A stretch of DNA of 28,421 nucleotides from positions 1 to 28,421 of the forward strand of contig NIVC01005022.1 of the NCBI GenBank assembly GCA_002269645.1, given 5' to 3'. This stretch comes from Macrostomum lignano. Taxonomy: Eukaryota. The notes beneath the pieces were generated by a model that ran no database searches, was not told where the DNA came from, and saw nothing but the letters and a program-made list of their open reading frames with translations. Shown piece after piece: positions 1 through 25,403 of this stretch; position 1 is the first letter of the stretch, and every line of letters begins with the position of its first letter. Made by a program: the position numbers and the translations under genes.

Positions 1-51
1 TTAACACGCAATCCTATAAGAATCGAACCCGGGCCCTTCCGGCGAGCTCAC

Positions 52-1854
52 CTGTTCAGTGCAAGCCCCGCAAAGTCTCCAGGTCGATCTGCTCCTGGGC
101 GAACTGGTCCGCCAGGTCGCCAAGTCCCAGCCGCTGCAGCACCGACTCTACAGTCTCCTCAGACTGCGGCTCCGCGTCCTCCGCTGCCGCCTCCGCCTCC
201 GCCTCCAGCGCCTGCGCAACATCGCCGTTGGCGCTGGCCGACCCGGACGACTCGATCACGTCGAAGGCGAGGACGCCGCCAAGGCCGTGACCGGCGATGG
301 AGAAGCCGCCAGAGTAGGCGGTTCCTGGCCGCGAACAGCGACGCAGGCGGCACAGCTCGGCCGCCAGCCGCGGGCGCCGCTCGGCAAGTCGGCGGGCCTC
401 CCCGGCGGCCAGCGCGTCGGCCAAGCAGCCGCCGGAGCCGCGGCACCGAGGAGGGCGTCAGGCGGGCCATCAGGCGGGCATCGATAAGCGGAGGCTGCCG
501 CCACACGGCCGGCAGGAACTCCAGCGGCCGGGCCGGTGCGGGAAGTGGCTCCGCATGAGGTCCGCGCAGGTCCGCCGGATTCGATCGGCCGCGCCAGCGG
601 GTGCTGACCGGCGCCGGCGTCGGGGACCAGCAGGATCACGTGATCGATGGGCTGCCACTCACCCTCGGGCAGGGCGCCCACCAAGTGGCCGGTGCGCGCA
701 CCGTAGGGTCCAGGGCCTGGGGACTCACCGGGGCCGGTGGCCGGCGCCACCCGGTACTGCAGCAGGTCGGCGGGGCCCTGGAATACGAAGGCCGTGTCCG
801 CCTGGCCCAGCGACGCAGGCAGGCGGATCTCCCGGCGCCAGGCGCCGGTCTCCACAGCCGAGCGGTACTGCAGCTCCAGCTGCTCGCTGGTGGCCTCATC
901 AAAGGGAGCGAGCACCCCCGAGGAGTCGGCCTCGGCCCGGCGGAACCAGGTGCAGCGGCGGATCGGCAGGTCGGGCTCCTGCCAGTAGGCCGCCCGCTTC
1001 ACCCTGGCCGGCAGCCAGGCGTCGTACCGGCCGCCGTCCACCGGCACCGGCGCCTCCGACATGGAGTTGGCGGCCTGCTCAAGGCGCTGCGAGTCGTGGC
1101 CAGTAAAGGGCATCCAGATCTTCTCCTGCCGTTGCTGGCCGGCCTCCGCCTCCGCATCCCAGTCGTCAAGCGGCTGCTCAAAGAACCAGTGCGCCTCTGG
1201 CGGCCGGTAGCCGCTGAAGAGGCCGGGCGGCGGCCCGCCGGCTGTCGGATCGGCAACTGCCGGCACCGAGGAGGCCACCGCCGACGCCGCAGCCGTTGTC
1301 TGGTAGCCGCCGGCAGCAGAGTTTGAAGAGTAGGAGACGGGCGGCGGCTGGAACCCGGATTGCTGCTGCTGCTGCTGGTAGGATGCCAGAGATGGCGGCG
1401 GAGGCTGCGCGGAAAACGCTGTTGAAGAGGCGGCTGTCGCCGGCGCCGCGGAGCCAGAGAAGGCGGCGTCGGCCGGCGGCACCCAGCGACGCTGCGGGAG
1501 GCCGCCGAAACGGACGCCACCAGTGCCGCTGGGAGGAGGCGCTGCGGGTGGCGGCGCGCCAGCGGCGGGTGGCGGCGCCGCGGCCGGCTGGCCAAGGAAG
1601 GAGTCCTCGTCCAGGGCTTCCAGCTCCTCGAAGCCGCCGCCAACGACGCTGCTGGCCGCTCCGCTGGGCAGCTCGGCGGCGGCCGCGGGCGGAGGCGGCG
1701 GCGGAGGCGGCGGCGCAGGCGGCACCAGCATGGCGGGCAGCTCAAACGCGATGCCCTGATTTGAGGCTGCGAACAGCAGCGATGGGGCGGCTGCCTGGCC
1801 GCTGGGGGTGGCGCTTCGCTCGCGACTCTGCGATGCTCGGTGATGGTCGGACAT
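52..1854 (-). CDS. SEC23IP: SEC23IP/DDHD2-family protein, large coding exon (Pro-rich N-terminus, WWE-like region, lipase-like domain, start of SAM domain); frameshifted in this assembly; gene continues left of the window
   Basis: Joined frames give HWFF..WMPFTGHDSQRLE, VDGGRYD, AYW..IRRCTWF, IDHVILLV, RSHF..GR(V)EFLPAVW, FSIAGHGLGGVLAFDVI and SAM-like SVESVLQRLGLGDLADQFAQEQIDLETL. A splice donor CAG|GTGAGC lies at 52/51. Start may be ATG 1854 or 1911. Orthology (SEC23IP vs DDHD2) is not resolved. Confidence 0.85.
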
Positions 1855-2389
1855 GCCAGCAGCGCGATCTGAGGGCCAGGTGAAGGCAGTAGTAGTTATG
1901 AGCAGTGGCACATTATGGTATCTGAAAGTAATTCATTGATTAACTTTGTTTTTTATTTTATTGCAAGATATCCAACAGTAACTTTTTAATTGCATTATAG
2001 TAAAACTACTGTGCTCTGCTATACAATGTGTAAAGCTAAACTATTGCAATTTGCCAATTTTCATCGTCTTATACTTAATTTTGATTTTTATAGGTAGAGA
2101 TTTTAACAATTTTTCAATGTTTCGTCTTTACCAAAGAGTTACATGTTATTTTTCTACTATTTAAAAATGTTTAATATTGTTTCTAGTTTTATTGAGCCAA
2201 GAGCCAATAAGCATCTAGATAACAGGTATCTAGGTATCTATGTAACAGATCTGTATATTATATTTTTATAGGAAAAGATATTATATTAGTCAAGTAAACT
2301 TGAGAAAATATGCATACTAGCAATCTATTGCCTCCTTTTATAAGGTGCCCAAAAAGCAAGAGACAAAAATATTCATATGAATCCTATTT

Positions 2390-2683: not shown

Positions 2684-3900
2684 TCATGGTAATAATTGAT
2701 TACACTTGCCCAAATGGGCAGATGTGCAACTGATGCACCAATTCATTATCTGAAACCAGTTGGTGAAGCATTGGGACCATTCACTTTGTCCTATGGTTGC
2801 CATGGCATCTTGATATGCTTGAACAGCCTCCTCACTGGATGAAAATTGATGCCCCTTCAGCTGACTCTTGACTTTTGGGAACAAAAAAGTCACATGGGGC
2901 CAGGTCAGGTGAGTAGGTTGGGTGTGGTAGCAATTTTACTTCAGAATTGGTCAAGAAGTCAATAGTCAAAGCAGCCATGTGTGCCAGGGTGTTGTCATGG
3001 CGCCACAGAAGACCACGGACTCCAGTTCTAGGACATCATTTGGCCTATGCGTTGAGGACTTTGGTACACAGACATTGGTATACCAATGTGGTGTCACCAT
3101 CTGCTGACTCTCGAGTGCTACTGTGGCCACATAGCCCATGAGCTGAAGAATGCTATGACCATCTTCTTTCCTGAACTCCTAGATCGGATGGCCTTCTGAG
3201 TGGCATCCTTATCAGGAAAGCACCACTGTGATGATTGACACTTTGTCTTGGTTGGAAATTGTAAATCCATGTTTCACCACCTGTTAGAATATCAAAAACA
3301 GACTACTGGATGTGTCCACTGTTGAATTTGGTGGCAGTTTCTTGCGGCTAGAATTGTCTAATTGGGAGGGTTTTGTGTGTGGGTGGGATTTTTGTGTGGA
3401 AACATTGGTGTTTCCGCTTGGAATCAGCCAAAGAAACAGCCATATTTTGTAGCGGGTGTGTCCACTGTTGAATTTGATAAGCATGAACCAACACTAATCT
3501 ACCTTGGAAGTCTTCTGGTCAGCAGTGAGGCAGTGGGGGATCCACTGGGACACCTCTTTTGCACTCAAAGGTGTTGGTATAGGATCTCATTAAGTTCCCC
3601 CAATCCAATCTCTAGGCTTGCCTCGAGCTAGCAGTAGGTGATTCAAGGATCCTCCAAGATAAGCTGCTCTGCCTCATTAATGTTTTGGTAGATAACTGCG
3701 GTTGCAAGCCTGCCACAATGGGGCTTATCTTGGAGGTGCTGCCGACTGTATCTGAATTCTGCATATTAATCAAAACTATTGTCCACAATAGTGCAGTCTT
3801 GAAAACAGCTTTGAAGCCGATTTAGTGATTCTTGGGATAATAAACCCATTTTGTAGTCATAATAAATTATGGCTCTAAAATGCTCACAAGAGAGTTCCAT
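2684..3900 (-). mobile_element. Decayed mariner (DD34D) transposase, essentially full length
   Basis: Minus strand reads MELSCEHFRAIIYYDYKMG (ATG 3900), WIPHCLTADQK, ILTGGETWIY (degraded TGDETW), WRHDN, HPTYSPDLAPCDF and LFPKVKSQLKGHQF, with many stops and frameshifts. TIRs were not identified. Confidence 0.9.
3311..3476. repeat. 20-bp direct repeat (TGTGTCCACTGTTGAATTTG) flanking a 126-bp insertion in the mariner
   Basis: Identical copies at 3311-3330 and 3457-3476. Removing one copy plus the insert rejoins KFNSG.. with ..VFDILTG. Confidence 0.85.
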
Positions 3901-6131
3901 GGCTACTGCATGTTCCTAAGTCGGGGTACAATAAAAAAATCCAAATAGCTCAAGGCAGCAAACTTGTCTATAGCTAAAATTGGAGGTATAAATTTAAAAC
4001 ATATTTTTATGCCAATAAATAAAATATTTAAACCCTAAAACAAGCCATCTTGCTCCATCTGGAAATTTTCAGAGCACCCTTCGCATTTACCCTTAATTAT
4101 CTTAGCAAAAACTAATATCTATTTTAGCTAGAAAAACTTCTAAAGCAATGAAAAGTTGTTAAGTATCTTGCTCAAGCAAGGATAAATTTTTTTCAAGTTT
4201 TGTTATATTTTCTATTTTTGCTCATTTTGTTATATTATAATAATAAGTAGAGCTAGGCTAGGCTAATGTATGATAAAAAACTCAGCTTAGTCACCAGGTT
4301 ATAATTTTCCTATTAAAGGTTTGTATAGAATATGATTGTGATCAATAGGTTAACCTCAAACTACTCTTATCAATATTTTGGTTTTTTAATCTAAATTCCA
4401 CCTTTTTTAGCTTTTAATCCTTCTAGGCTATTTTATGGACTTGTCATATTTAGCTTCAGCCTAATCTATCTAACTTTTGTATTCTTATATATGTTCTTTT
4501 AAATGCTGCATTTATACTAGTTAGCCCCAGCCTTTATTCTGCTTTTCCCTATTATCCACACTCTCTTAATGCTATATACTATTTCCCTATACTCTTCACA
4601 CATTGCAAGTCAACAGTGAGGCATTGACTGACTCACATTGTTATTAGGCCTAGTAGTAATTGTAATTCTATTAACATGTCGTAAGTGCACTTATAATATT
4701 TATTGAAGCTTCTTCAAGTTTATGTTGATAAAATACTTCCCTATAGAGTTCTACACCCCTATAGAGACAAAATTATGATCCTATCAAAATTGAAACTATT
4801 TTATCAACATAAACTTGAAGAAGTCCATTTATTGTTATCTCTTATTAGGCCTACTGCTAAAAGCCATCAAAATCATTTGAAAATGCTCAAAGAACCTAAA
4901 CTCAGAGCTGAAGTGAAGAAAGATCAAGTCAAGATTGGATTCATCTTCAAATCCAAAGCCGAAGTTGACTGGTTTAATTGCAGCTGTGATACATTTAGCT
5001 AGGCTAGAGAAAAAACACAAAGGTAAAATTGCTAAAACTTTTCTGCTGACGAAATTTTAAATGGACAAACATTTGAATGGGCAAAAAGCCTGAGTGGGGC
5101 TGTCAATCTAGCTAAACGATGACAATGTAAGTTGTTTTTTGCCGCCTTTTGGTTTCTTAGAAAATGAGCCTGCATGACGCCGCATCAGTTTTAAACCCCA
5201 GCTATTACTGTTAAACAAGTTTAACTGACCATTCTTAGGCTTTAGGGAGAACATAAAACTTTCTTACTTATTTCTTTAAGCTAGCATATTTTACTTTCCA
5301 ATAAAACTTTTTGTAGATATAACATAGTAAGAGCCGCTGCATTAAAATAACAAATCCGGCATGAAAAACTTAAGCCTAGATGGCTGAGCTAATCTGTAGA
5401 AAGAGAATGCATTTACATACATATATACCCACATGGATTTGCATGGGCGTCTCTAGAACATTTTCGAAAATGGCTGACAATAGAGAGAAATAAAAAATAA
5501 AGGTAAATTAGGCGACCAAGGTTAGATTTGATTGACAACCGTTTGCATGGGTTATGGATGTCGCGAAGAAAGTGTACAATCACGCTTCCTTTTAAACTTT
5601 TAAACTTCTAGACCTTTCAACTTTTATATTTCGATTTGTGTGTGGTAGGAATACAGCAATGTTAAGACTGTCGGCAGAGCAGCAGTTGCATATCCACTCA
5701 GTCACGGCCCAAGGGGGCATAAGGCCACGTCACTGTCACGAACGTCTATTCAGCTATGAATCAAGGACACTGTATATAGTTATATACAGGCTCCTTGCTA
5801 TGAATCCGCTAAAAAAGAAAATTTTACAAAGAGATTTTTCGAGAGGAGATTGAACACCAACTTTTCTTAGTTTTACATGTAACTTGCTGTCTCTTCTCTT
5901 CTGGTTTTAGGCTTTTAGCTAGCTGTCTCTTCAGATACAGCTCTCTTCTAGTAATCTGAAAATTGTATTTTTAACACGCATGTGATTTTATTTAAACTTT
6001 TTTTCCAAAAAATGAAAGGTCCCGTTTATGTTTAGTTATAGTGTCCTACAATATTTCGAATATTCAGGGTGAATATTTCAACTGTTCAGGGTTAAGTGTC
6101 TTGGTTGCCTCACAATGCAATTCTTTTTGCT

Positions 6132-7653
6132 TCACTCGCACGAGTTTCCCACTGGGTCGAACAGCCGGATGACCACCAGGCCGTGCTGGCCGGCGTTGCC
6201 GCCAGTGGTGCCGCTGCAGCCGCTGCCGGAGCAGAAGGAGCCGCCGCCGCCTCCTGGAGGGCCCCCGAGAAGCTGGTGGCACCTCCGCTGAAGCCGCCGC
6301 CGGCCCCGGCAACGCCCCAGTTGGGGTTCATCGTGCCGCCGCCTCCGCCGCCGCCGAACCCGCCGTCGCCGGTGTTGGAGCCGCCAGCGTCGCCGCCCAG
6401 CCAGCCCTCGGCCCGACTGCCGCCTCCGTCACCGTCGTCCGGTCCCCGCCTGGTGCACACCGGCTTCCCCAGCCAGCCGGCGCCACAGCCAGCGAGGTTC
6501 TGGTTGCCGGTCATGGCGCTGGAGTCGTGGAAGCCCGGCTGTCCGTTGCTGCCGCCGTGGCTGTTTCCGCTCGGATTCGCGACGGAGCCGTTGACGCCGG
6601 CCTCTCCGGGCAGGCCTGTTGAAATTTTGGATGCGGCTTTTACCGGCTGCGTAGCAATCTGAGATAAGCTCAAGCTGAGTGTACTCAAAGTGGAGTCCGT
6701 TTGAAGTTGGGGTATTGTCAGAAATCTGAAGCTGGTGCTGTGTTCCCTATAGACCTATGTAATTTTACTGCACTCACCATCCCTATGATAGGTCCCGGCA
6801 CCTCCACCTCCGGCTGCAGCCAGCAGCAGCTCGTCTGCCGTCTGGTACACGAAGCTGCCGCCGCTTCCGCCGCCTCCGCTGTACTTGGAGCTGGGAGGAC
6901 CGCCGGCCTGTCCGACCACGACGCTCAGCTGGGTGCCGGCCGTCAGGTTGAAGGCGCCGGACACGAAGGCGCCGCTGCCGCCAGCCTTGCCTGAGAAGGA
7001 GTTGGTGCCGCCTCTGGCGCCCGACACTTCGATCCGGTAGCAGCCGGTCGAGGGGATCGTCACGGACTGGATGGAGCCGGCACTGCCCGTGCCGCTGTCT
7101 GCAGTGAAAGAGGGCGCTGCAGATCAGATGTCAAGGTGCAGCAAATGCTCGAAGCACAGAAAATTTGAAAACATTGGCTTTTCCTCACTTCTGAGCTCAA
7201 TGGTGACGTTCAGCATCCTCTTCCTCATTAGCATCAGCTCCGTGAAGTTCTCGGCCGTCCACAGCCTGGCGCCGGGCTCGGAGCCCACGAGTCTCTGCAA
7301 GTGAGTCCCGGCCGGTCCCGGCGCCTGAGACGCGTCGTTCAGCAGCAGCAGCTGGCAGACGCGCGAGCTGGGAATGAGCGAAGCCAGCAGGCAGCCACTT
7401 GACGCCGGTCAGGTTGACGAGTTCGCTGCTGGAGGCGTTGCCGATCAGGACGGGCTCGGGGGCCAAGGTAAAACGGCCGGAACAGTCCGGACGCGAGCCT
7501 GTGAGAGTTCAATTGGGAAAGCATCGCATGCATAAGTCAAACCCACGCAAGGGTTTTAATCCAGCTCCAAGATTTACCTGACACAGCAGCGGAGCAGCAG
7601 CAAAGCATGAGGGCTATGTAGCAGATTAACAGCATCTCCAGCTGTCTCGGCAT
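6132..7653 (-). CDS. Four-exon gene for a secreted protein: signal peptide, PAN/apple-like Cys region, ALK/LTK-type glycine-rich domain
   Basis: Exons ~7653-7578 (MPRQLEMLLICYIALMLCCCSAAVS), 7498-7189, 7098-6778 and ~6658-6132, with GT-AG sites. Motifs: QSVTIPSTGCYRIEVSGARGG, FNLTAGTQLSVVVGQAGG, GGGGSGGSFV, GDGGFGGGGGG, and GGGGGSFC..GLVVIRL after a +1 repair in a G run near 6265. The PAN-like call is weak, and the phase at the last junction is unresolved. Confidence 0.8.
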
Positions 7654-8254: not shown

Positions 8255-8820
8255 TTGAGCATCAGAAACTTCCCTTGAGCACTGGAATCTCAGAAACTTC
8301 CCCTTGAGCACTGGAATCTCAGCAACTTCCCCTTGAGCACTAGAATCTCAGAAACTCCCCTTGAGCATTGGAATCTCAGCAACTTCCCCTTGAGCACTAG
8401 AATCTCAGAAACTTCCCTTGAGCACTGGAATCTCAGAAACTTCCCTTGAGCACTGAAATCTCAGAAACTTCCCCTTGAGCACTAGAATCTCAGAAACTTC
8501 CCTTGAGCACTGGAATCTCAGAAACTTCCCTTGAGCACTGAAATCTCAGAAACTTCCCCTTGAGCACTAGAATCTCAGAAACTTCCCTTGAGCACTGGAA
8601 TCTCAGAAACTTCCATTGAGCACTAGAATCTCAGAAACTTCCCTTGAGCACTGGAATCTCAGAAACTTCCCTTGAGCACTAGAATCTCAGAAACTTCCCT
8701 TGAGCACTGGAATCTCAGAAACTTCCCTTGAGCACTGGAATCTCAGAAACTTCCCTTGAGCACTGGAATCTCAGAAACTTCCCCTTGAGCACTGGCATCT
8801 CAGCAACCCCCCTTGAGCCC
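8255..8820. repeat. 28-29 bp minisatellite, about 19-20 copies
   Basis: Unit GAAACTTCCC(C)TTGAGCACT(G/A)GAATCTCA, period 28 (e.g. 8641 to 8669), ending in a poly-C tract. Confidence 0.95.
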
Positions 8821-9787: not shown

Positions 9788-10484
9788 AGTAGAAGGCATG
9801 AGGGGGCTTTTGGGACAAAATTTTTCACGTCCTCCATAATCCCATTAAATCCATCCATATTATCCCCGACAGAATCAGAAAAAAAGGGGGTCGCACTCGC
9901 TCACAAAACGTCCTCCATAATCCCATTAAATCCATCCATATTATCCTTGACAGAATCATGAAAAAGGGAGGGGCCGCACTTGCTCCGAAAACTTCGAACA
10001 TAATCCCATTAAATCCATCCATATTATCCCTGACAGAATCAGAGCAGGTGTCCACTGATACCTGTTATGCTCACTGACACAGACATAATCCACTGACATC
10101 CACCCATAGCATCTTCGAAACAATAAGAAAATAATCTGCACTCTTCTCCCCACATTCAATCCGAAGCGGCGAAACCAGATCCCAAAGACTTTAAATCATC
10201 AGCGCAGGGTCCTTACCCTTTGAAAAAAAATTAATTTCTCAATAAAAATGTTTCCAGTTGTCTCTCCAGGTTCCTATTATACTCAGCCTCATCCATTGTA
10301 CAAATCCAAGTACCAATGCAAACTAGAATGCAGCGAATACATGAGAAAATATTGTCCCGGCATTGATATCAATGTCCCTAATATTAATCAAGCACTTAAA
10401 TCTCACTGGTTTCATAAGTATGGAGTAACCTACGTAAAAGATTACGACAGCTACTATAACTTTGCTGAAGTTATAAGGCAGTTG
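9788..10484 (+). repeat. Left terminal inverted repeat (~700 bp), with three 81-83 bp subrepeats and an ORF
   Basis: Reverse complement of ~24720-25403; homology ends near the stop of the embedded ORF. Confidence 0.93.
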
Positions 10485-10487
10485 TAG
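10248..10487 (+). CDS. 79-aa TIR-encoded protein of unknown function (left copy)
   Basis: AAAAATG start; 66/79 identical to the right-TIR copy, with about 12 synonymous codon differences. Confidence 0.75.
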   Translation: MFPVVSPGSYYTQPHPLYKSKYQCKLECSEYMRKYCPGIDINVPNINQALKSHWFHKYGVTYVKDYDSYYNFAEVIRQL

Positions 10488-10548
10488 TAGACAACTACAA
10501 GGTTGTACCTGGCGGCTTATATCCTAATTTTACAAGTCTGAAGACGAC

Positions 10549-11406
10549 TCACATTCTCTCAATAATAATTGTTAACACAAACTCTTCCCCGTTAAAATCG
10601 ACACCAACTCCATCCTCTGTTTCAAACAGCAGAACGATTTCATGTATCTCCCTATTACTCAGAATCACTCTTTTCACAGGGTTTGGCTTTTGCACAAGCA
10701 TTTTGCCACCAGCAACAGAGTTTGAAATGTTAAAAAGTATGTTGGTTCGTTTGCCTTTGAATATCCAATCATGGCTCAGATTGCTACGAATTAATATATT
10801 CAAACCTTTGACAATGTCAGCGATATTTGGCGCCAAGTACATACCGGATATTAGCCGGGACACAGCAACAGTGCCAGGCGCCTGCAGCGGGCTTTGGTCT
10901 GTGGCGCCACCATAAACTCTCTTTTCAAATCCCAACTCGCGATACCAAGTGCCATCTTTAAACTCTACCTCTGCGTCCTTATGAACTTGCAAGATAACTC
11001 TCATGACAGTTAGATCATAAGTTAATCTAACAGGGAACAGTTTATTTTCTGGTTTGCTTTCATCCGGTATCTCAAAATGCTTTCGTTTAGTGAAGACATT
11101 CTCCAAGAAGTAATTATAAGTATCCACGCTCTGTGTGCTGACAGGAAATATCACAACCTCTGTTGTAGTACGCTTCCATTTGTAATAAAACTTGTTATTT
11201 TCCGTTGTCACATTGGGAACATTTGACCACCCAGTGAAATCATTGAGATAGACGTGGTAATTCGCCTCGGGATCCAAACGAAGTGGTTGCTCCAATTTTT
11301 GAATGAAGATTCCGTTTGACTCAGTAATGCGACCCGCTACAGTGATTGGAATGCTCTCCTTAGAGTGTGAAACAATGTTGTTCAGTCTTTCGGCTATGGC
11401 TTCCAT
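10549..11406 (-). CDS. Minor capsid (penton-like, single jelly-roll) protein
   Basis: Intact 285-aa ORF next to the MCP. Pattern LEQPLRLD..YHVYLNDF.GWSNVPNV...NNKFYY and C-terminal IHEIVLLFETEDG..VDFNGE match Polinton/adintovirus pentons. Confidence 0.8.
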   Translation of the reverse strand: MEAIAERLNNIVSHSKESIPITVAGRITESNGIFIQKLEQPLRLDPEANYHVYLNDFTGWSNVPNVTTENNKFYYKWKRTTTEVVIFPVSTQSVDTYNYFLENVFTKRKHFEIPDESKPENKLFPVRLTYDLTVMRVILQVHKDAEVEFKDGTWYRELGFEKRVYGGATDQSPLQAPGTVAVSRLISGMYLAPNIADIVKGLNILIRSNLSHDWIFKGKRTNILFNISNSVAGGKMLVQKPNPVKRVILSNREIHEIVLLFETEDGVGVDFNGEEFVLTIIIERM

Positions 11407-11427
11407 TTTTTTATTGAAAAAAATTAT

Positions 11428-21933: not shown

Positions 21934-22956
21934 TTAATTAATTTCTGTGTCAGCTGGTATCACTAGGAGTTCAGCTCTAGTGAATGACCGCGTGGGGGAT
22001 TTAGGGTTAAAGGCTGAGATAAAAAGTAATAGTCACCGGAGTCGGAGGTAAAATGTCTGTCTATTTTATGTACATCAAGGCTGAAGTATGGATCTGTAGC
22101 TCTTCTTTTGGTGTCTTTCTCTAGCTCTCCAGGTAGATATAAAAAGCGTAGAAACTCAGAGTTTGTCAGTATGTATGGTGATTCAACTCCTGGAAGCTTA
22201 GGGTAGTTCGAGGTGTGTTTTGTGTTGTGTGTGTTGTGTGGGTTGTCGTGTTGTTGTCTGTTTTATGAGATGCCTTAAGTTCGACAGTGTCTTGTTTAAT
22301 TGCATGGGATGGTTTCAATCCAGTCATGCGTGTGACTTCATTGTTCAGTTGCTCTATAACAGTGGGGAGCTCTGTCCACTTGATAGTACTGCCACTTTTT
22401 AGTTTCAGCTCTTCAGCTGTCTGCTTAGTGAATAGCCTCTTGGCTAGAGTTAGATTGAATCTTTCCACAAAAGCCTGGTCTCTGTGCAAGTTTGTTCTGC
22501 CATAGCGAATCTCTGTGTGCTTTTCCATAAGGGATTTCACTGCACCCATGAATTCCTTACCCGGGTCGGTCATAAAATTTCAGGGTATGGGGGAGAGTTT
22601 TTATAAATATCTTGCAGTGCGCTGGCAACAACCTCTGACTTCTTCGTCTTGAGTGGGCGAGCTTCCTTATATCTGGAAGCAACGTCTGTAATTGTGAGAG
22701 CATACTTGTAGCCCGAGTCATTGGGGAGAAACAAAAGATCTGCTTGGTGCGCTTCATTAGGTTTATAGATGCTAAAGTGAGGTCTTGTAAATTTTACTGG
22801 TGGGAAATAGACTTGAAAGACAGCCTGCTTAGAGAGCCATTTTTCTACTGTAGCTTTTGGTTCCTTACTCAGCTCCATGAGTTTACTAACGGCATTTTTT
22901 CCTACAAAGAATCCTTTGTCGCTGTAGTAGAGTTTTTTAAGTTTTTGATCTGTCAT
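21934..22956 (-). CDS. int: Retroviral-like DDE integrase (~341 aa after three +1 repairs)
   Basis: HQADLLFL (D), TDPGKEF (D), FVERFN (E). The C-terminus RFLYLPGELEKDTKRRATDPYFS..PTRSFTRAELLVIPADTEIN* is missed by the ORF track; 1023+3 nt = 342 codons. Confidence 0.93.
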
Positions 22957-22986
22957 TTATTTAAAAAGAAAATTTTAAATAAAATA

Positions 22987-23445
22987 ATGCAGCGCTCTGG
23001 TGGTAAGTTAGATTCACATGGACTGATAGAAAAGCTTCCTCATCCGAACAAAGGCTGGACACTTCCCGGCTATAAATATTGCGGGCCTTTGAATCCACTT
23101 GAAATACAGCTAGATAAAAACAATAATCCACATCCTGGGCATGAGCCTGTGAACGAGCTAGACTCTGTCTGCATGTGGCATGACGTTAAATATAGAGATT
23201 TTCCTGAGGAGAAGAATCGTTGGGACAAAGAAATGCTTAAGAGACTAGACAATATAGGGGCTTCAAGCGGATTTCGCGAGTCTATTGCTAGGAAATTAGT
23301 CAAGGCGGTTATTTTTGGTAAGTCTAAGTTGGGGTTGGGGGTGTACGCCGAGGGCGGTGTTTGGGGAGAGAAGGTGGGTGCACGGGGAGAGAGGGCGGAC
23401 GCTCGGGAGCGGGGTTTATTTTGTGTGCTCCAAACGAGGTACTAG
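22987..23445 (+). CDS. Parvovirus VP1u-type phospholipase A2 (adintovirus PLA2X-like)
   Basis: LPGYKYCGPLN (Ca-loop-like), PVNELDSVCMWHDVKY (HD dyad). True start is most likely ATG 22987 (MQRSGG), not 22744. Confidence 0.88.
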   Translation: MQRSGGKLDSHGLIEKLPHPNKGWTLPGYKYCGPLNPLEIQLDKNNNPHPGHEPVNELDSVCMWHDVKYRDFPEEKNRWDKEMLKRLDNIGASSGFRESIARKLVKAVIFGKSKLGLGVYAEGGVWGEKVGARGERADARERGLFCVLQTRY

Positions 23446-23844
23446 GAAGACTGCTGAAAGAGCTGGGGGTTGAGAGAGACGCTTGAGTCGGGAAAGATTA
23501 TTCGCAGCCAAGCGCAACAGCTGCATTTTGAAAGGGGGGGGGGTAACTGCTATTTTCTGAGGGAGCGCAAAGTTCCACGCGTGCATTCCTTTCCGCTTTG
23601 ACAACCGGAGGGAAGGAAGCGGGTGGAGGGAATCGATCGCTCGGAAGCTAGTTAAAGCAAGCAAGAAAATTCAGCTTATTTCGCCCGCAAACGTTCTTCG
23701 TCACGCAATACTGCACCGTTGTGGCTGCTGATTTCATTATGTTGTAAGTTTATTCGTTTTTTTTACTTACTGAAATTCTATCCTGTGTTAAGAATTGAAA
23801 ATTCTCTTATTTTAATTAAATCTTTGTTTTTAGTTCACAAAAAA

Positions 23845-24132
23845 ATTACGTTCTACTCGACCGACCTAGAAAATCTCCACGACGGTCGCCTTGTTGAAGG
23901 ATTAGATGCCGACGAGCAGGCATCAGAGCGAATTCAAGAAGTTCTCCACAATTTCTTCAATGAAAAAGTTGAGAACCAGCGAATTCGTTCAAGAGCGGCC
24001 ATGGAGACCCAGGATCGCAACTATGCCATGAGAACCGAAATGGTGTTTGACGAACTTCGCCGATCATTTGTTGCTGATGAAGATTCACTTCTTAGTTATC
24101 AACAATTTTTTTCTGGGATTTTATTAATGTAA
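23845..24132 (+). CDS. Acidic helical accessory ORF of unknown function; start uncertain (ATT at 23845 after an A run, or spliced)
   Basis: TFYSTDLENLHDGRLVEGLDADEQASERIQEVLHNFFNEKVENQRIRSRAAMETQDRNYAMRTEMVFDELRRSF has protein-like composition; the upstream part of the 23719 ORF looks like AT-rich intron or UTR sequence. Confidence 0.5.
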   Translation: MTFYSTDLENLHDGRLVEGLDADEQASERIQEVLHNFFNEKVENQRIRSRAAMETQDRNYAMRTEMVFDELRRSFVADEDSLLSYQQFFSGILLM

Positions 24133-24495
24133 GCTACTCATAGTAGTCTTCTAAACACTTTCCTGGATCTCCAGGATTTTTTTAAACTCGTGCCAATTCC
24201 TGACAATACAGGAATTCCTGACAATACAGGAAAGTCTTTTTACTCGATTTTTTCAGGATTTTATCAATGTAAGCTACTCATAGTAGTCTTCTAAACACTT
24301 TCCTGGATCTCCAGGATTTTTTTAAACTCGTGCCAATTCCTGACAATACAGGAATTCCTGACAATACAGGAAAGTCTTTTACTGGATTTTTTTCCAGGAT
24401 TTTATCAATGTAAGCTACTCATAGTAGTCTTCTAAACACTTTCCTGGATCTCCAGGATTTTTTTAAACTCGTGCCAATTCCTGACAATACAGGAA
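24110..24495. repeat. 140-141 bp tandem repeat (~2.7 copies) built around TTCCTG-N6-CAGGA(A/T) palindromes
   Basis: ATGTAAGCTACTC recurs at 24127, 24267 and 24408; eight palindromes counted. Confidence 0.92.
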
Positions 24496-24715
24496 AGTGC
24501 TGTTCACAAAATGACCGGGAGGAAAATCAATATTATTCTGAATCCGAAGAATATCGATTTTGGATTGTTTCATTTCCAACCTTGCAACTAGCTTGCACGT
24601 CGCGGAAGAAAATTCTCAGCCGGATAGCCCTGCACACTCAGTGTCTGCTCTTTCCTCCTTATTTCCTCCTGTTTTATGTAAATATACTTGCGAATAAATG
24701 AACTCAGTATGTTTT

Positions 24716-24958
24716 TTAACGCAATTGCTTAATGATTTCTGCAAAGTTATAGTAGCTGTCGTAATCTTTTACGTAGGTTACTCCATACTTATGAAACCAG
24801 TGTCTTTGGAGAGCTAGATTAATATTAGGGACATTGATTTCAATGCCGGGCCAATATTTTCTCATGTACTCGCTGCATTCTAGTTTGCATCGGTACTTGC
24901 TCTTGTAATTAGGCTCGTCCGCTTTGTAATAAGAACCCGGAGAGACAACTGGAAACAT
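24716..24958 (-). CDS. 80-aa TIR-encoded protein (right copy)
   Basis: Paralogue of 10248-10487, with the same AAAAATG start and both copies pointing into the element. Confidence 0.75.
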   Translation of the reverse strand: MFPVVSPGSYYKADEPNYKSKYRCKLECSEYMRKYWPGIEINVPNINLALQRHWFHKYGVTYVKDYDSYYNFAEIIKQLR

Positions 24959-25403
24959 TTTTATTGAGAATTTAATTTTTTTTCAAAGGGTAAGGACCCT
25001 GCGCTGATGATTTAAAGTCTTTGGGATGTGGTAGCACGTTGCGGATTGAATGGGGGGAGAAGAATGCAGATTATTTTCTGATTGTTTCGAACATGCTATG
25101 GGTGGATGTCAGTGTCAGTGAACATAACAGGTATCAGTGGACACCTGCTCTGATTCTGTCAGGGATAATATGGATGGATTTAATGGGATTATGGAGGACG
25201 TTTTGTGAGCGAGTGCGACCCCCCTTTTTTTCTGATTCTGTCAGGGATAATATGGATGGATTTAGGTGGATTATGGAGGACGTTTTGTGAGCGAGTGCGA
25301 CCCCCCTTTTTTTCTGATTCTGTCAGGGATAATATGGATGGATTTAATGGGATTATGGAGGAGGTGAAAAATTTTGTCCCAAAAGCCCCTCATGCCTTCT
25401 ACT
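24720..25403 (-). repeat. Right terminal inverted repeat with three ~81 bp subrepeats
   Basis: Reverse complement of the left TIR; ends GCCTTCTACT at 25403. Confidence 0.93.

What the first reader, a model, noticed from the sequence alone, without database searches (positions are those of the whole stretch)
9788..25403. Complete Maverick/adintovirus that looks broken but may be an intact, virion-competent provirus
Seen: MCP, mCP, ATPase and protease are uninterrupted. The ~18 breaks in the other genes (pPolB 5, peptide precursor 4, integrase 3, hairpin 2, fibre at least 2, two others 1 each) are repaired by adding single bases, mostly in homopolymers, with exact codon arithmetic and no in-frame stops. 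One junction in the fibre tail does not fit this pattern. The host genes show the same defect, while the truly dead mariner nearby is full of nonsense codons. Inference: the breaks are long-read deletion errors and the element is young and potentially active.
Basis: partly seen in the sequence, partly recalled or inferred. Interest (0 to 1): 0.85.

Follow-up and report, generated by a model that had tools for sequence, protein, structure and literature searches.

The report
Flatworm Maverick provirus with mismatched ends
A virus-like Maverick element in a flatworm genome carries the full usual gene set and its broken genes look like sequencing errors, but its two ends appear to come from different copies, so it points to a recently functional family rather than proving an intact provirus at this spot.

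Summary
The 15.6-kb element (9788-25403) is a real Maverick/Polinton (adintovirus-like). The flanking host gene matches Macrostomum lignano. pPolB has 5 frame breaks and integrase 3, located against natural homologues; all 8 shift the frame the same way, with no internal stop. About 8 more breaks rest on weaker evidence, and 3 claimed ones are no better than chance. A host exon is residue-for-residue identical to a conspecific protein between at least six frame changes, so this sequence is indel-error-prone and most breaks are probably artefacts. The host errors go both ways, and a homopolymer bias was not shown. The sequence is therefore most likely a composite of two family members, either an assembly chimera or a recombinant. 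A recently coding-competent family is likely; an intact young provirus at this locus, and virions, are not shown. New member of a known kind.

The parts
9788..10487 (+). Left terminal inverted repeat (~700 nt; starts AGTAGA; 2.6 copies of an 82-83-nt unit)
10248..10487 (+). 79-aa ORF inside the left repeat, open; no family hit
10549..11406 (-). Putative minor capsid protein, 285 aa, open. Identity inferred from position and size only
   Evidence: no Pfam, PHROGs or meaningful PDB hit; single-sequence model failed, pLDDT 29.8
11428..12723 (-). Major capsid protein, 431 aa, double jelly-roll, full length, unbroken
   Evidence: PF21738 E 3e-8; 73% to P0246 over 1-430; no frame change vs 7 homologues; model pLDDT 89.5; best fold match Sputnik virophage capsid, E 2.5e-22
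12754..13961 (+). Unknown gene with a Gln/Pro-rich middle; one break near 13.1 kb (no homologue test)
   Evidence: 0 of 200 shuffles thread as well
13978..14357 (+). Small gene with GxG motifs, possibly a protease-processed core protein (inference); one break near 14.1 kb
   Evidence: (3 of 200)
14554..15354 (+). A32-type packaging ATPase, 266 aa, open, Walker A and B present
   Evidence: PF04665 E 7.5e-7
15370..16169 (+).
16262..17024 (+). Gene with a hydrophobic hairpin; one or two breaks near 16.6 kb
16991..17392 (-). Adenain-like maturation protease, 133 aa, open, His/Asp/Cys motifs present
   Evidence: PF00770 E 1.6e-4, just above cut-off
17456..21341 (-). Protein-primed DNA polymerase B; five breaks (three within about 19.9-20.1 kb, one near 19.05 kb, one near 18.85 kb); no internal stop; exonuclease and polymerase motifs present
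   Evidence: 40% to Corynactis coral adintovirus PolB (P0119)
21567..21916 (-). pX/mu-like core-protein precursor; one supported break near 21.8 kb; the longer tail with three more breaks is unsupported
   Evidence: PF05829 E 1.8e-7
21934..22956 (-). Retroviral-type integrase; three breaks (near 22.6, 22.2 and 22.0 kb); DDE present; no internal stop
   Evidence: PF00665; 73% to P0121
22987..23445 (+). Parvovirus-type phospholipase A2 domain protein, open frame, Ca-loop and HD motifs present
   Evidence: PF08398 E 5e-14
23446..24715 (.). Accessory region: second copy of an 11-aa PLA2 C-terminal peptide (23627-23659), a 158-codon open stretch (23656-24132), and a 140-nt x2.8 tandem
24716..25403 (-). 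Right terminal inverted repeat (688 nt) with its own open 80-aa ORF (24716-24958); 56 substitutions against the left arm; no target-site duplication outside
31..1917 (-). Control, host: WWE/DDHD-domain gene exon, identical in amino acids to a Macrostomum lignano protein between at least six frame changes
2684..3900 (-). Control: dead mariner transposase with stops and frame changes
   Evidence: (weak HTH_48 and Transposase_1 hits, E about 0.04)
6110..7500 (-). Control, host: ALK/LTK glycine-rich-domain gene with an apparent frame change near 6.26 kb (by eye, no homologue test)
   Evidence: PF12810 E 4.7e-10

Best explanation
This is a Maverick/Polinton of a Macrostomum flatworm with the standard gene set. 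By analogy with the family (inferred, not shown here), it would copy itself as linear DNA by protein-primed synthesis from its ends, integrate with the rve integrase, and package DNA with the A32 ATPase into a double-jelly-roll capsid matured by adenain, with PLA2 and pX-like proteins as virion accessories. Most frame breaks are small-indel errors of the assembled sequence, not mutations. But the sequence is a composite: the two ends descend from different members of the family, which diverged under selection and were joined either by the assembler or by recombination between two insertions in the genome. That one event explains both the mismatched repeats and the missing target-site duplication. 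SHOWN: gene set, MCP fold, break positions and class for pPolB and integrase, absence of stops, error-prone host exon, repeat divergence, no duplication. INFERRED: that the element's own breaks are errors, that it is a composite, and everything about activity.
For: (1) Host exon vs P0241: 474 of 490 residues match exactly, in runs separated by frame changes. There are six changes plus one compensated cluster. A bird DDHD2 places the same six changes. (2) pPolB and integrase: 8 breaks, 0 stops, one class; the mariner has about 6 and 5. (3) Integrase differs at 1 of 60 conserved columns, within the homologues' range; all catalytic motifs are present. (4) Five of 12 genes are unbroken, the modal outcome for 16 random breaks (5844 of 20000 simulations). 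(5) The arms differ by 56 substitutions, 27 of them in the outer 450 columns. Their ORF has pS 0.31 and pN 0.11, p=0.002. Neutral decay of that size would have left about 15 stops in about 12 kb of genes (my arithmetic from the 3.6% stop fraction), and none is seen in the frames examined. (6) No target-site duplication. (7) Precedent: a false consensus from multi-copy endogenous viruses creates frameshifts and variants (PMC10120064, passages). Published assemblies of this species are described as error-prone, with collapsed or expanded copies (10.1101/2023.04.19.537444, passages; PMC5730564, passages).
Against: No read or sister copy was seen, so no break in the element is directly proven to be an error. 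The unbroken genes include exactly the four morphogenesis genes: P=0.009 under uniform breaks, and 46 of 1320 shifts of the observed pattern. The element's breaks are one-directional while the host exon's are mixed, so the two error processes may differ. With only the 8 verified breaks, zero stops has P=0.03-0.26 under decay. The pPolB piece differs at 14 of 109 conserved columns, more than any of the 119 homologues, but it is also the most distant sequence, so this is inconclusive. No internal junction of the supposed composite could be located.
Confidence: 0.58

Rival explanations
1. One reading: one young, intact, potentially virion-forming provirus at this locus. All breaks are errors; the repeat asymmetry is a natural trait of the lineage, and the target-site duplication was lost or never made.
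For: Complete gene set, no stops, catalytic residues intact. The outermost ~60 nt of the arms differ by one substitution and one single-base indel, so both putative origins survive. Both repeat-borne ORFs are open.
Against: 8% arm divergence, including the non-coding part, and no duplication. Terminal repeats of linear protein-primed replicons are normally homogenised at replication (my own knowledge, from adenovirus). It fails the published 'intact' definition.
Confidence: 0.15
2. A decaying copy: the breaks are real, deletion-biased mutations in a dead insertion.
For: 96% of vertebrate Maverick loci are degraded (PMC8097293, passage). The dead mariner's frame changes are also mostly of one class (by eye). 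Eight of eight in one class has P=0.06-0.17 if deletions make up 70-80% of natural indels. Imperfect repeats and no duplication are typical of old copies.
Against: No stops where 3-10 are expected for about 19 breaks (P=0.04-0.0003 at assumed ratios of 5-15 substitutions per indel). The arm divergence carries a selection signature rather than a neutral one. The host exon shows the sequence itself is indel-ridden.
Confidence: 0.12
3. A replication-dead element whose capsid module (MCP, mCP, ATPase, protease, plus PLA2) is kept open by selection, as a co-opted or trans-complementing particle factory; the breaks elsewhere are real.
For: The four morphogenesis genes are all clean: P=0.009 uniform, 0.035 with the clustered pattern; PLA2 is clean too.
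Against: The number of clean genes is as expected by chance. Break-free stretches of 2.2 and 1.7 kb also lie largely inside pPolB. The broken genes lack the stops that real relaxation would add. Likely virion accessories (pX-like, fibre-like) are broken.
Confidence: 0.1

Closest known systems
Maverick/Polinton elements of animals (Barreat and Katzourakis 2021, PMC8097293)
   Same: pPolB, integrase, ATPase, protease, MCP and probable mCP. Size 15.6 kb and repeats ~700 nt, within the reported 12.7-24.6 kb and 46-1447 bp. AGT-type end.
   Different: No 6-bp target-site duplication; arms 8% apart; end motif AGTAGA rather than (AGT)2; PZ, PW and PM orthologues not identified; gene order differs from the vertebrate two-module layout.
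Adintoviruses, Alpha-type module (Starrett et al. 2021, PMC8502044)
   Same: PolB 40% identical to a named adintovirus PolB, with homologues bearing PF03175; adenain, packaging ATPase, rve integrase, PLA2 and a pX-like domain.
   Different: PLA2 and pX are separate ORFs on opposite strands, not the fused PLA2X described there. The pPolB sits on a long branch (1.87) with no supported placement among 24 selected homologues. The OTU domain is suggested only by a motif.
Artefactually fragmented endogenous Polinton-like viruses (Bellas et al. 2023, PMC10120064)
   Same: Multi-copy endogenous viruses whose genes look broken because of consensus errors.
   Different: There the authors checked with reads and resequencing, in protists; here it is inferred from internal controls in an animal.
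Orthopolintovirales-related insertions in Rhabditophora (10.1101/2025.04.19.649669)
   Same: Polinton-class insertions in flatworm genomes are already reported (passage).
   Different: No species, structure or intactness was given in the passages seen; 'Macrostomum' does not occur in the main text, and the supplements were closed.

Membership tests
Maverick/Polinton | [quoted passage not shown] | tested here: met
   3197 of 8000 candidates at E<=1e-10; motifs present; broken at five places as assembled
Maverick/Polinton | Retroviral-type (rve) integrase | tested here: met
   PF00665; 73% to a 326-aa integrase; DDE present
Maverick/Polinton | Double jelly-roll major capsid protein | tested here: met
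   PF21738 above cut-off; model pLDDT 89.5 matches virophage, iridovirus and PBCV-1 capsids
Maverick/Polinton | Packaging ATPase and adenain-like protease | tested here: met
   PF04665 and PF00770 above cut-off; motifs
Maverick/Polinton | Single jelly-roll minor capsid protein | tested here: inconclusive
   285-aa ORF next to the MCP; no Pfam, PHROGs or PDB support; fold failed
Maverick/Polinton | Terminal inverted repeats with a conserved end motif | tested here: met
   ~700 nt, both start AGTAGA; imperfect, 56 substitutions
'Intact' Maverick (PMC8097293 definition) | 6-bp target-site duplication | tested here: not met
   Best match 3 of 5 over 9 end registers and lengths 5-8
'Intact' Maverick (PMC8097293 definition) | All core ORFs uninterrupted | tested here: inconclusive
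   Not met as assembled; probably artefactual; needs reads
'Intact' Maverick (PMC8097293 definition) | PZ, PW (and PM) genes | not testable with these tools
Alpha adintovirus (PMC8502044) | PF03175-class PolB with N-terminal OTU-like domain | tested here: inconclusive
   PF03175 E 2e-4, below cut-off, on one piece; many homologues carry PF03175; OTU only by a recalled Cys/His pattern
Alpha adintovirus (PMC8502044) | PLA2X: PLA2 with a C-terminal pX-like domain in one protein | tested here: not met
   PLA2 (22987+) and Adeno_PX (21570-21836, minus strand) are separate ORFs flanking the integrase
Active virus | Transcripts, free linear DNA, particles | not testable with these tools
   No reads or expression data available

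The most novel reading that the evidence does not exclude
Macrostomum carries a currently active Maverick family with several co-circulating, recombining end types and an unfused PLA2/pX layout, and it makes virions. That would put a Maverick particle within reach in a laboratory-cultured, transgenic animal model. A bolder variant: the mismatched ends are genuine, and recombinant Mavericks with two different terminal repeats exist in the genome.
Probability: 0.2. Interest if true: 0.72.

Novelty: new member of a known kind. Interest (0 to 1): 0.33.

Why it matters
As of 2021, Maverick particles had not been observed (PMC8097293, abstract passage), and coding-intact copies were only about 4% of vertebrate loci. 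A coding-competent family in a cultured, transgenic flatworm would make the virion question testable by observation. The practical lesson is ordinary but useful: in this sequence frameshifts are not evidence of decay, and an apparently complete element may be stitched from two copies. I found no description of a Macrostomum Maverick in four searches: 'Macrostomum lignano + Maverick' (1 unrelated listing), 'Macrostomum + Polinton' (1 Tc1/mariner listing), 'adintovirus + Platyhelminthes' (0) and 'Maverick + Polinton + flatworm + capsid' (1). Repeat databases and subscription papers were not searchable, so it may already be catalogued.

Tried and rejected
(1) Exact look-up of 10 window proteins: 0 of 10 in the collection. 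No near-identical full-length pPolB among the 120 best listed longer proteins; the best was about 46%. So no sister copy was available as a direct test. Cluster membership of the homologues and the Atlas search stayed unchecked, as did the metagenome and viral contig collections. (2) Conserved-column decay test for pPolB: the first run (52 of 263) included one short piece in the wrong frame and is discarded. The repeat on one natural frame (14 of 109) is confounded because the window is the outgroup (45% to homologues, which are 60% alike). (3) Single-sequence fold of the putative mCP failed; the PDB search gave only a chance hit. (4) PHROGs gave no informative hit for 18 pieces. (5) A plasmid search for a mariner reference found nothing, so mariner counts are by eye. 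(6) The first pX threading used a wrong start and was redone. (7) The codon-usage path produces false compensating pairs in an intact gene at the lower penalty (MCP) and in the Gln-rich gene, so it is only supporting evidence. Its training excluded the gene under test. (8) Programmed slippage or frameshifting as the cause: rejected, since about 16 scattered sites and stop-free breaks in host genes make it implausible (inference). (9) Terminal-repeat divergence as a clock for insertion age: rejected, since it carries a selection signature and the expected stops are missing. (10) No obvious interrupted ORF continues across the two flanks (by eye). (11) The tree used 24 of 120 homologues, chosen to include the named and the more distant ones; it gives no placement.
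Full report
WHAT IS THERE. The window holds a 15.6-kb element at 9788-25403, bounded by ~700-nt inverted repeats that both begin AGTAGA. Pfam finds a double-jelly-roll capsid domain, an A32 ATPase, an adenain protease, pPolB and endonuclease VII pieces, an rve integrase, a parvovirus-type PLA2 and an adenovirus pX-like domain (38 pieces scanned). The 431-aa MCP aligns end to end with a 73% identical relative and folds with pLDDT 89.5; its best structural match is the Sputnik virophage capsid (E 2.5e-22). The neighbouring 285-aa ORF is called mCP on position and size only. The flanking WWE/DDHD gene matches Macrostomum lignano proteins. This is a Maverick/Polinton of a free-living flatworm.

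THE BREAKS. A frameshift-aware alignment to natural homologues placed 5 breaks in pPolB (15 of 15 homologues) and 3 in the integrase (25 of 30; 2 shorter matches and 3 with extra compensating shifts). All eight are in one frame class, with no stop on any path. All 17 catalytic-motif patterns tested were found, and the integrase differs at 1 of 60 conserved columns. The other genes have no homologue in hand. Five breaks (two single-break genes, two in the fibre-like gene, one in the pX-like gene) are supported by stop-threading against shuffles and a codon-usage path. One fibre junction is of the opposite class. The hairpin gene needs one break of the opposite class or two of the common class, and hydropathy favours two. 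The three further breaks claimed for the peptide precursor are matched by 283 of 300 random sequences. The defensible count is 8 verified plus about 8 likely. The homopolymer claim was not borne out statistically: 3 of 6 well-localised breaks, against 23% background.

ERROR OR DECAY. The best control is the host exon. Against the conspecific protein P0241, 474 of 490 residues match exactly in runs separated by six frame changes and one compensated cluster; a bird DDHD2 independently gives the same six. Indels without substitutions are not what decay or paralogue divergence gives: paralogous coding sequence in this species differs by about 1.1% SNPs (10.1101/2023.04.19.537444, passages). So the sequence is indel-error-prone. 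The host errors are mixed in class (3 and 3), clustered in 660 of 1460 nt and not in homopolymers, so they are similar to the element's defect but not the same. The mariner has about 5 stops and 6 frame changes (by eye; 3 stops in the first 110 codons), against 0 and 8 in the element (Fisher p=0.045). Under assumed ratios of 5-15 substitutions per frameshifting indel, zero stops has P=0.26-0.03 for 8 breaks and 0.04-0.0003 for 19. One result goes against the error reading: the clean genes include all four morphogenesis genes (P=0.009 uniform; 46 of 1320 shifts), although five clean genes of 12 is the modal expectation. Known precedent: reads from near-identical endogenous virus copies create a false consensus with frameshifts (PMC10120064, passages), and published assemblies of this species have many bases not scored as error-free (PMC5730564, passages).

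The two terminal repeats differ by 56 substitutions, a 13-nt indel and a few small indels; 27 substitutions lie in the outer 450 columns and only 2 in the first 100. The ORF inside the repeat is open on both sides and differs at 8, 9 and 19 first, second and third codon positions, pN/pS 0.36, p=0.002. Substitution errors are rare in this window, judged by the host exon, so these are real differences between source molecules. They cannot be neutral ageing after insertion: that much decay would leave about 15 stops in the genes (my arithmetic). There is also no target-site duplication, which the published definition of an intact Maverick requires (PMC8097293, passages and section 7). One explanation covers both facts: the two ends come from different family members, joined by the assembler or by recombination between two insertions. 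I could not locate the junction or tell the two causes apart.

HOW IT MOST LIKELY WORKS. By family analogy (inferred): protein-primed replication of a linear genome from the termini, integration by the rve integrase, packaging by the A32 ATPase into a double-jelly-roll capsid, adenain processing of small GxG-bearing core proteins, and PLA2-aided entry. The genes were under selection recently; whether any single genomic copy is whole, expressed or packaged is untested.

COMPARISON. It meets the Maverick hallmarks tested, except that the mCP is inconclusive. It fails the 'intact' definition on the target-site duplication. It resembles Alpha adintoviruses (PMC8502044, parts 1-2 of 6, passages and one truncated supplement seen) but has PLA2 and pX as separate genes. 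Its pPolB is a long, unplaced branch. Polinton-class insertions in flatworms are already mentioned (10.1101/2025.04.19.649669, passages; supplements closed and may bear on this). PMC10748475 was seen as passages only (5-8-bp duplications in Polintons). Three supplementary files of PMC5730564 did not mention Maverick or Polinton. All other papers were seen as search listings only.

VERDICT. Interest 0.33. The upside is an observable Maverick virion in a laboratory animal model (probability about 0.2).

Noticed in passing
window 23275-23307 and 23627-23659 (+): An 11-residue peptide of the PLA2 C-terminal region recurs 350 nt downstream with identical amino acids but about 30% of bases changed. 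This suggests an old duplication kept under selection and an unrecognised coding segment in the accessory region.
   Followed up: partly
window 10248-10487 (+) and 24716-24958 (-): Each terminal repeat carries an open 79-80-aa ORF with no family hit; the two copies differ at 13 of 79 residues in blocks separated by long identical stretches.
   Followed up: yes
window 24105-24495: 140-nt x2.8 tandem; the units are nearly identical (1 substitution, 2 small indels between units 1 and 2) and each holds an 18-nt internal duplication and a GTAAG...CAG pair that looks like splice signals.
   Followed up: partly
window 23743-23833 (+): Possible intron (GTAAGT ... TTTTAG) ahead of the open stretch ending at 24132; unusual for a Maverick if real (by eye).
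   Followed up: no
window 8262-8818: Satellite of about 20 units of 28-29 nt with an 85-nt higher-order period, about 1 kb left of the element.
   Followed up: partly
window 31-1917 (-): The DDHD-like host gene has Gly in place of the lipase-motif Ser (family motif recalled), and the conspecific protein has it too: possibly a catalytically dead paralogue. Two other database entries of this gene (P0242, P0243) are themselves frame-scrambled, P0243 at more than 30 sites.
   Followed up: partly
window 14404-14509: Short ACAC-rich 21-27-nt tandem repeats between the small GxG gene and the ATPase, possibly regulatory.
   Followed up: no
window 4709-4823: 30-nt, 97% inverted repeat with a 55-nt spacer in AT-rich host sequence.
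   Followed up: no
window 22170-22260 (-): The integrase has a 30-80-nt low-complexity insertion relative to most homologues near its second break.
   Followed up: no
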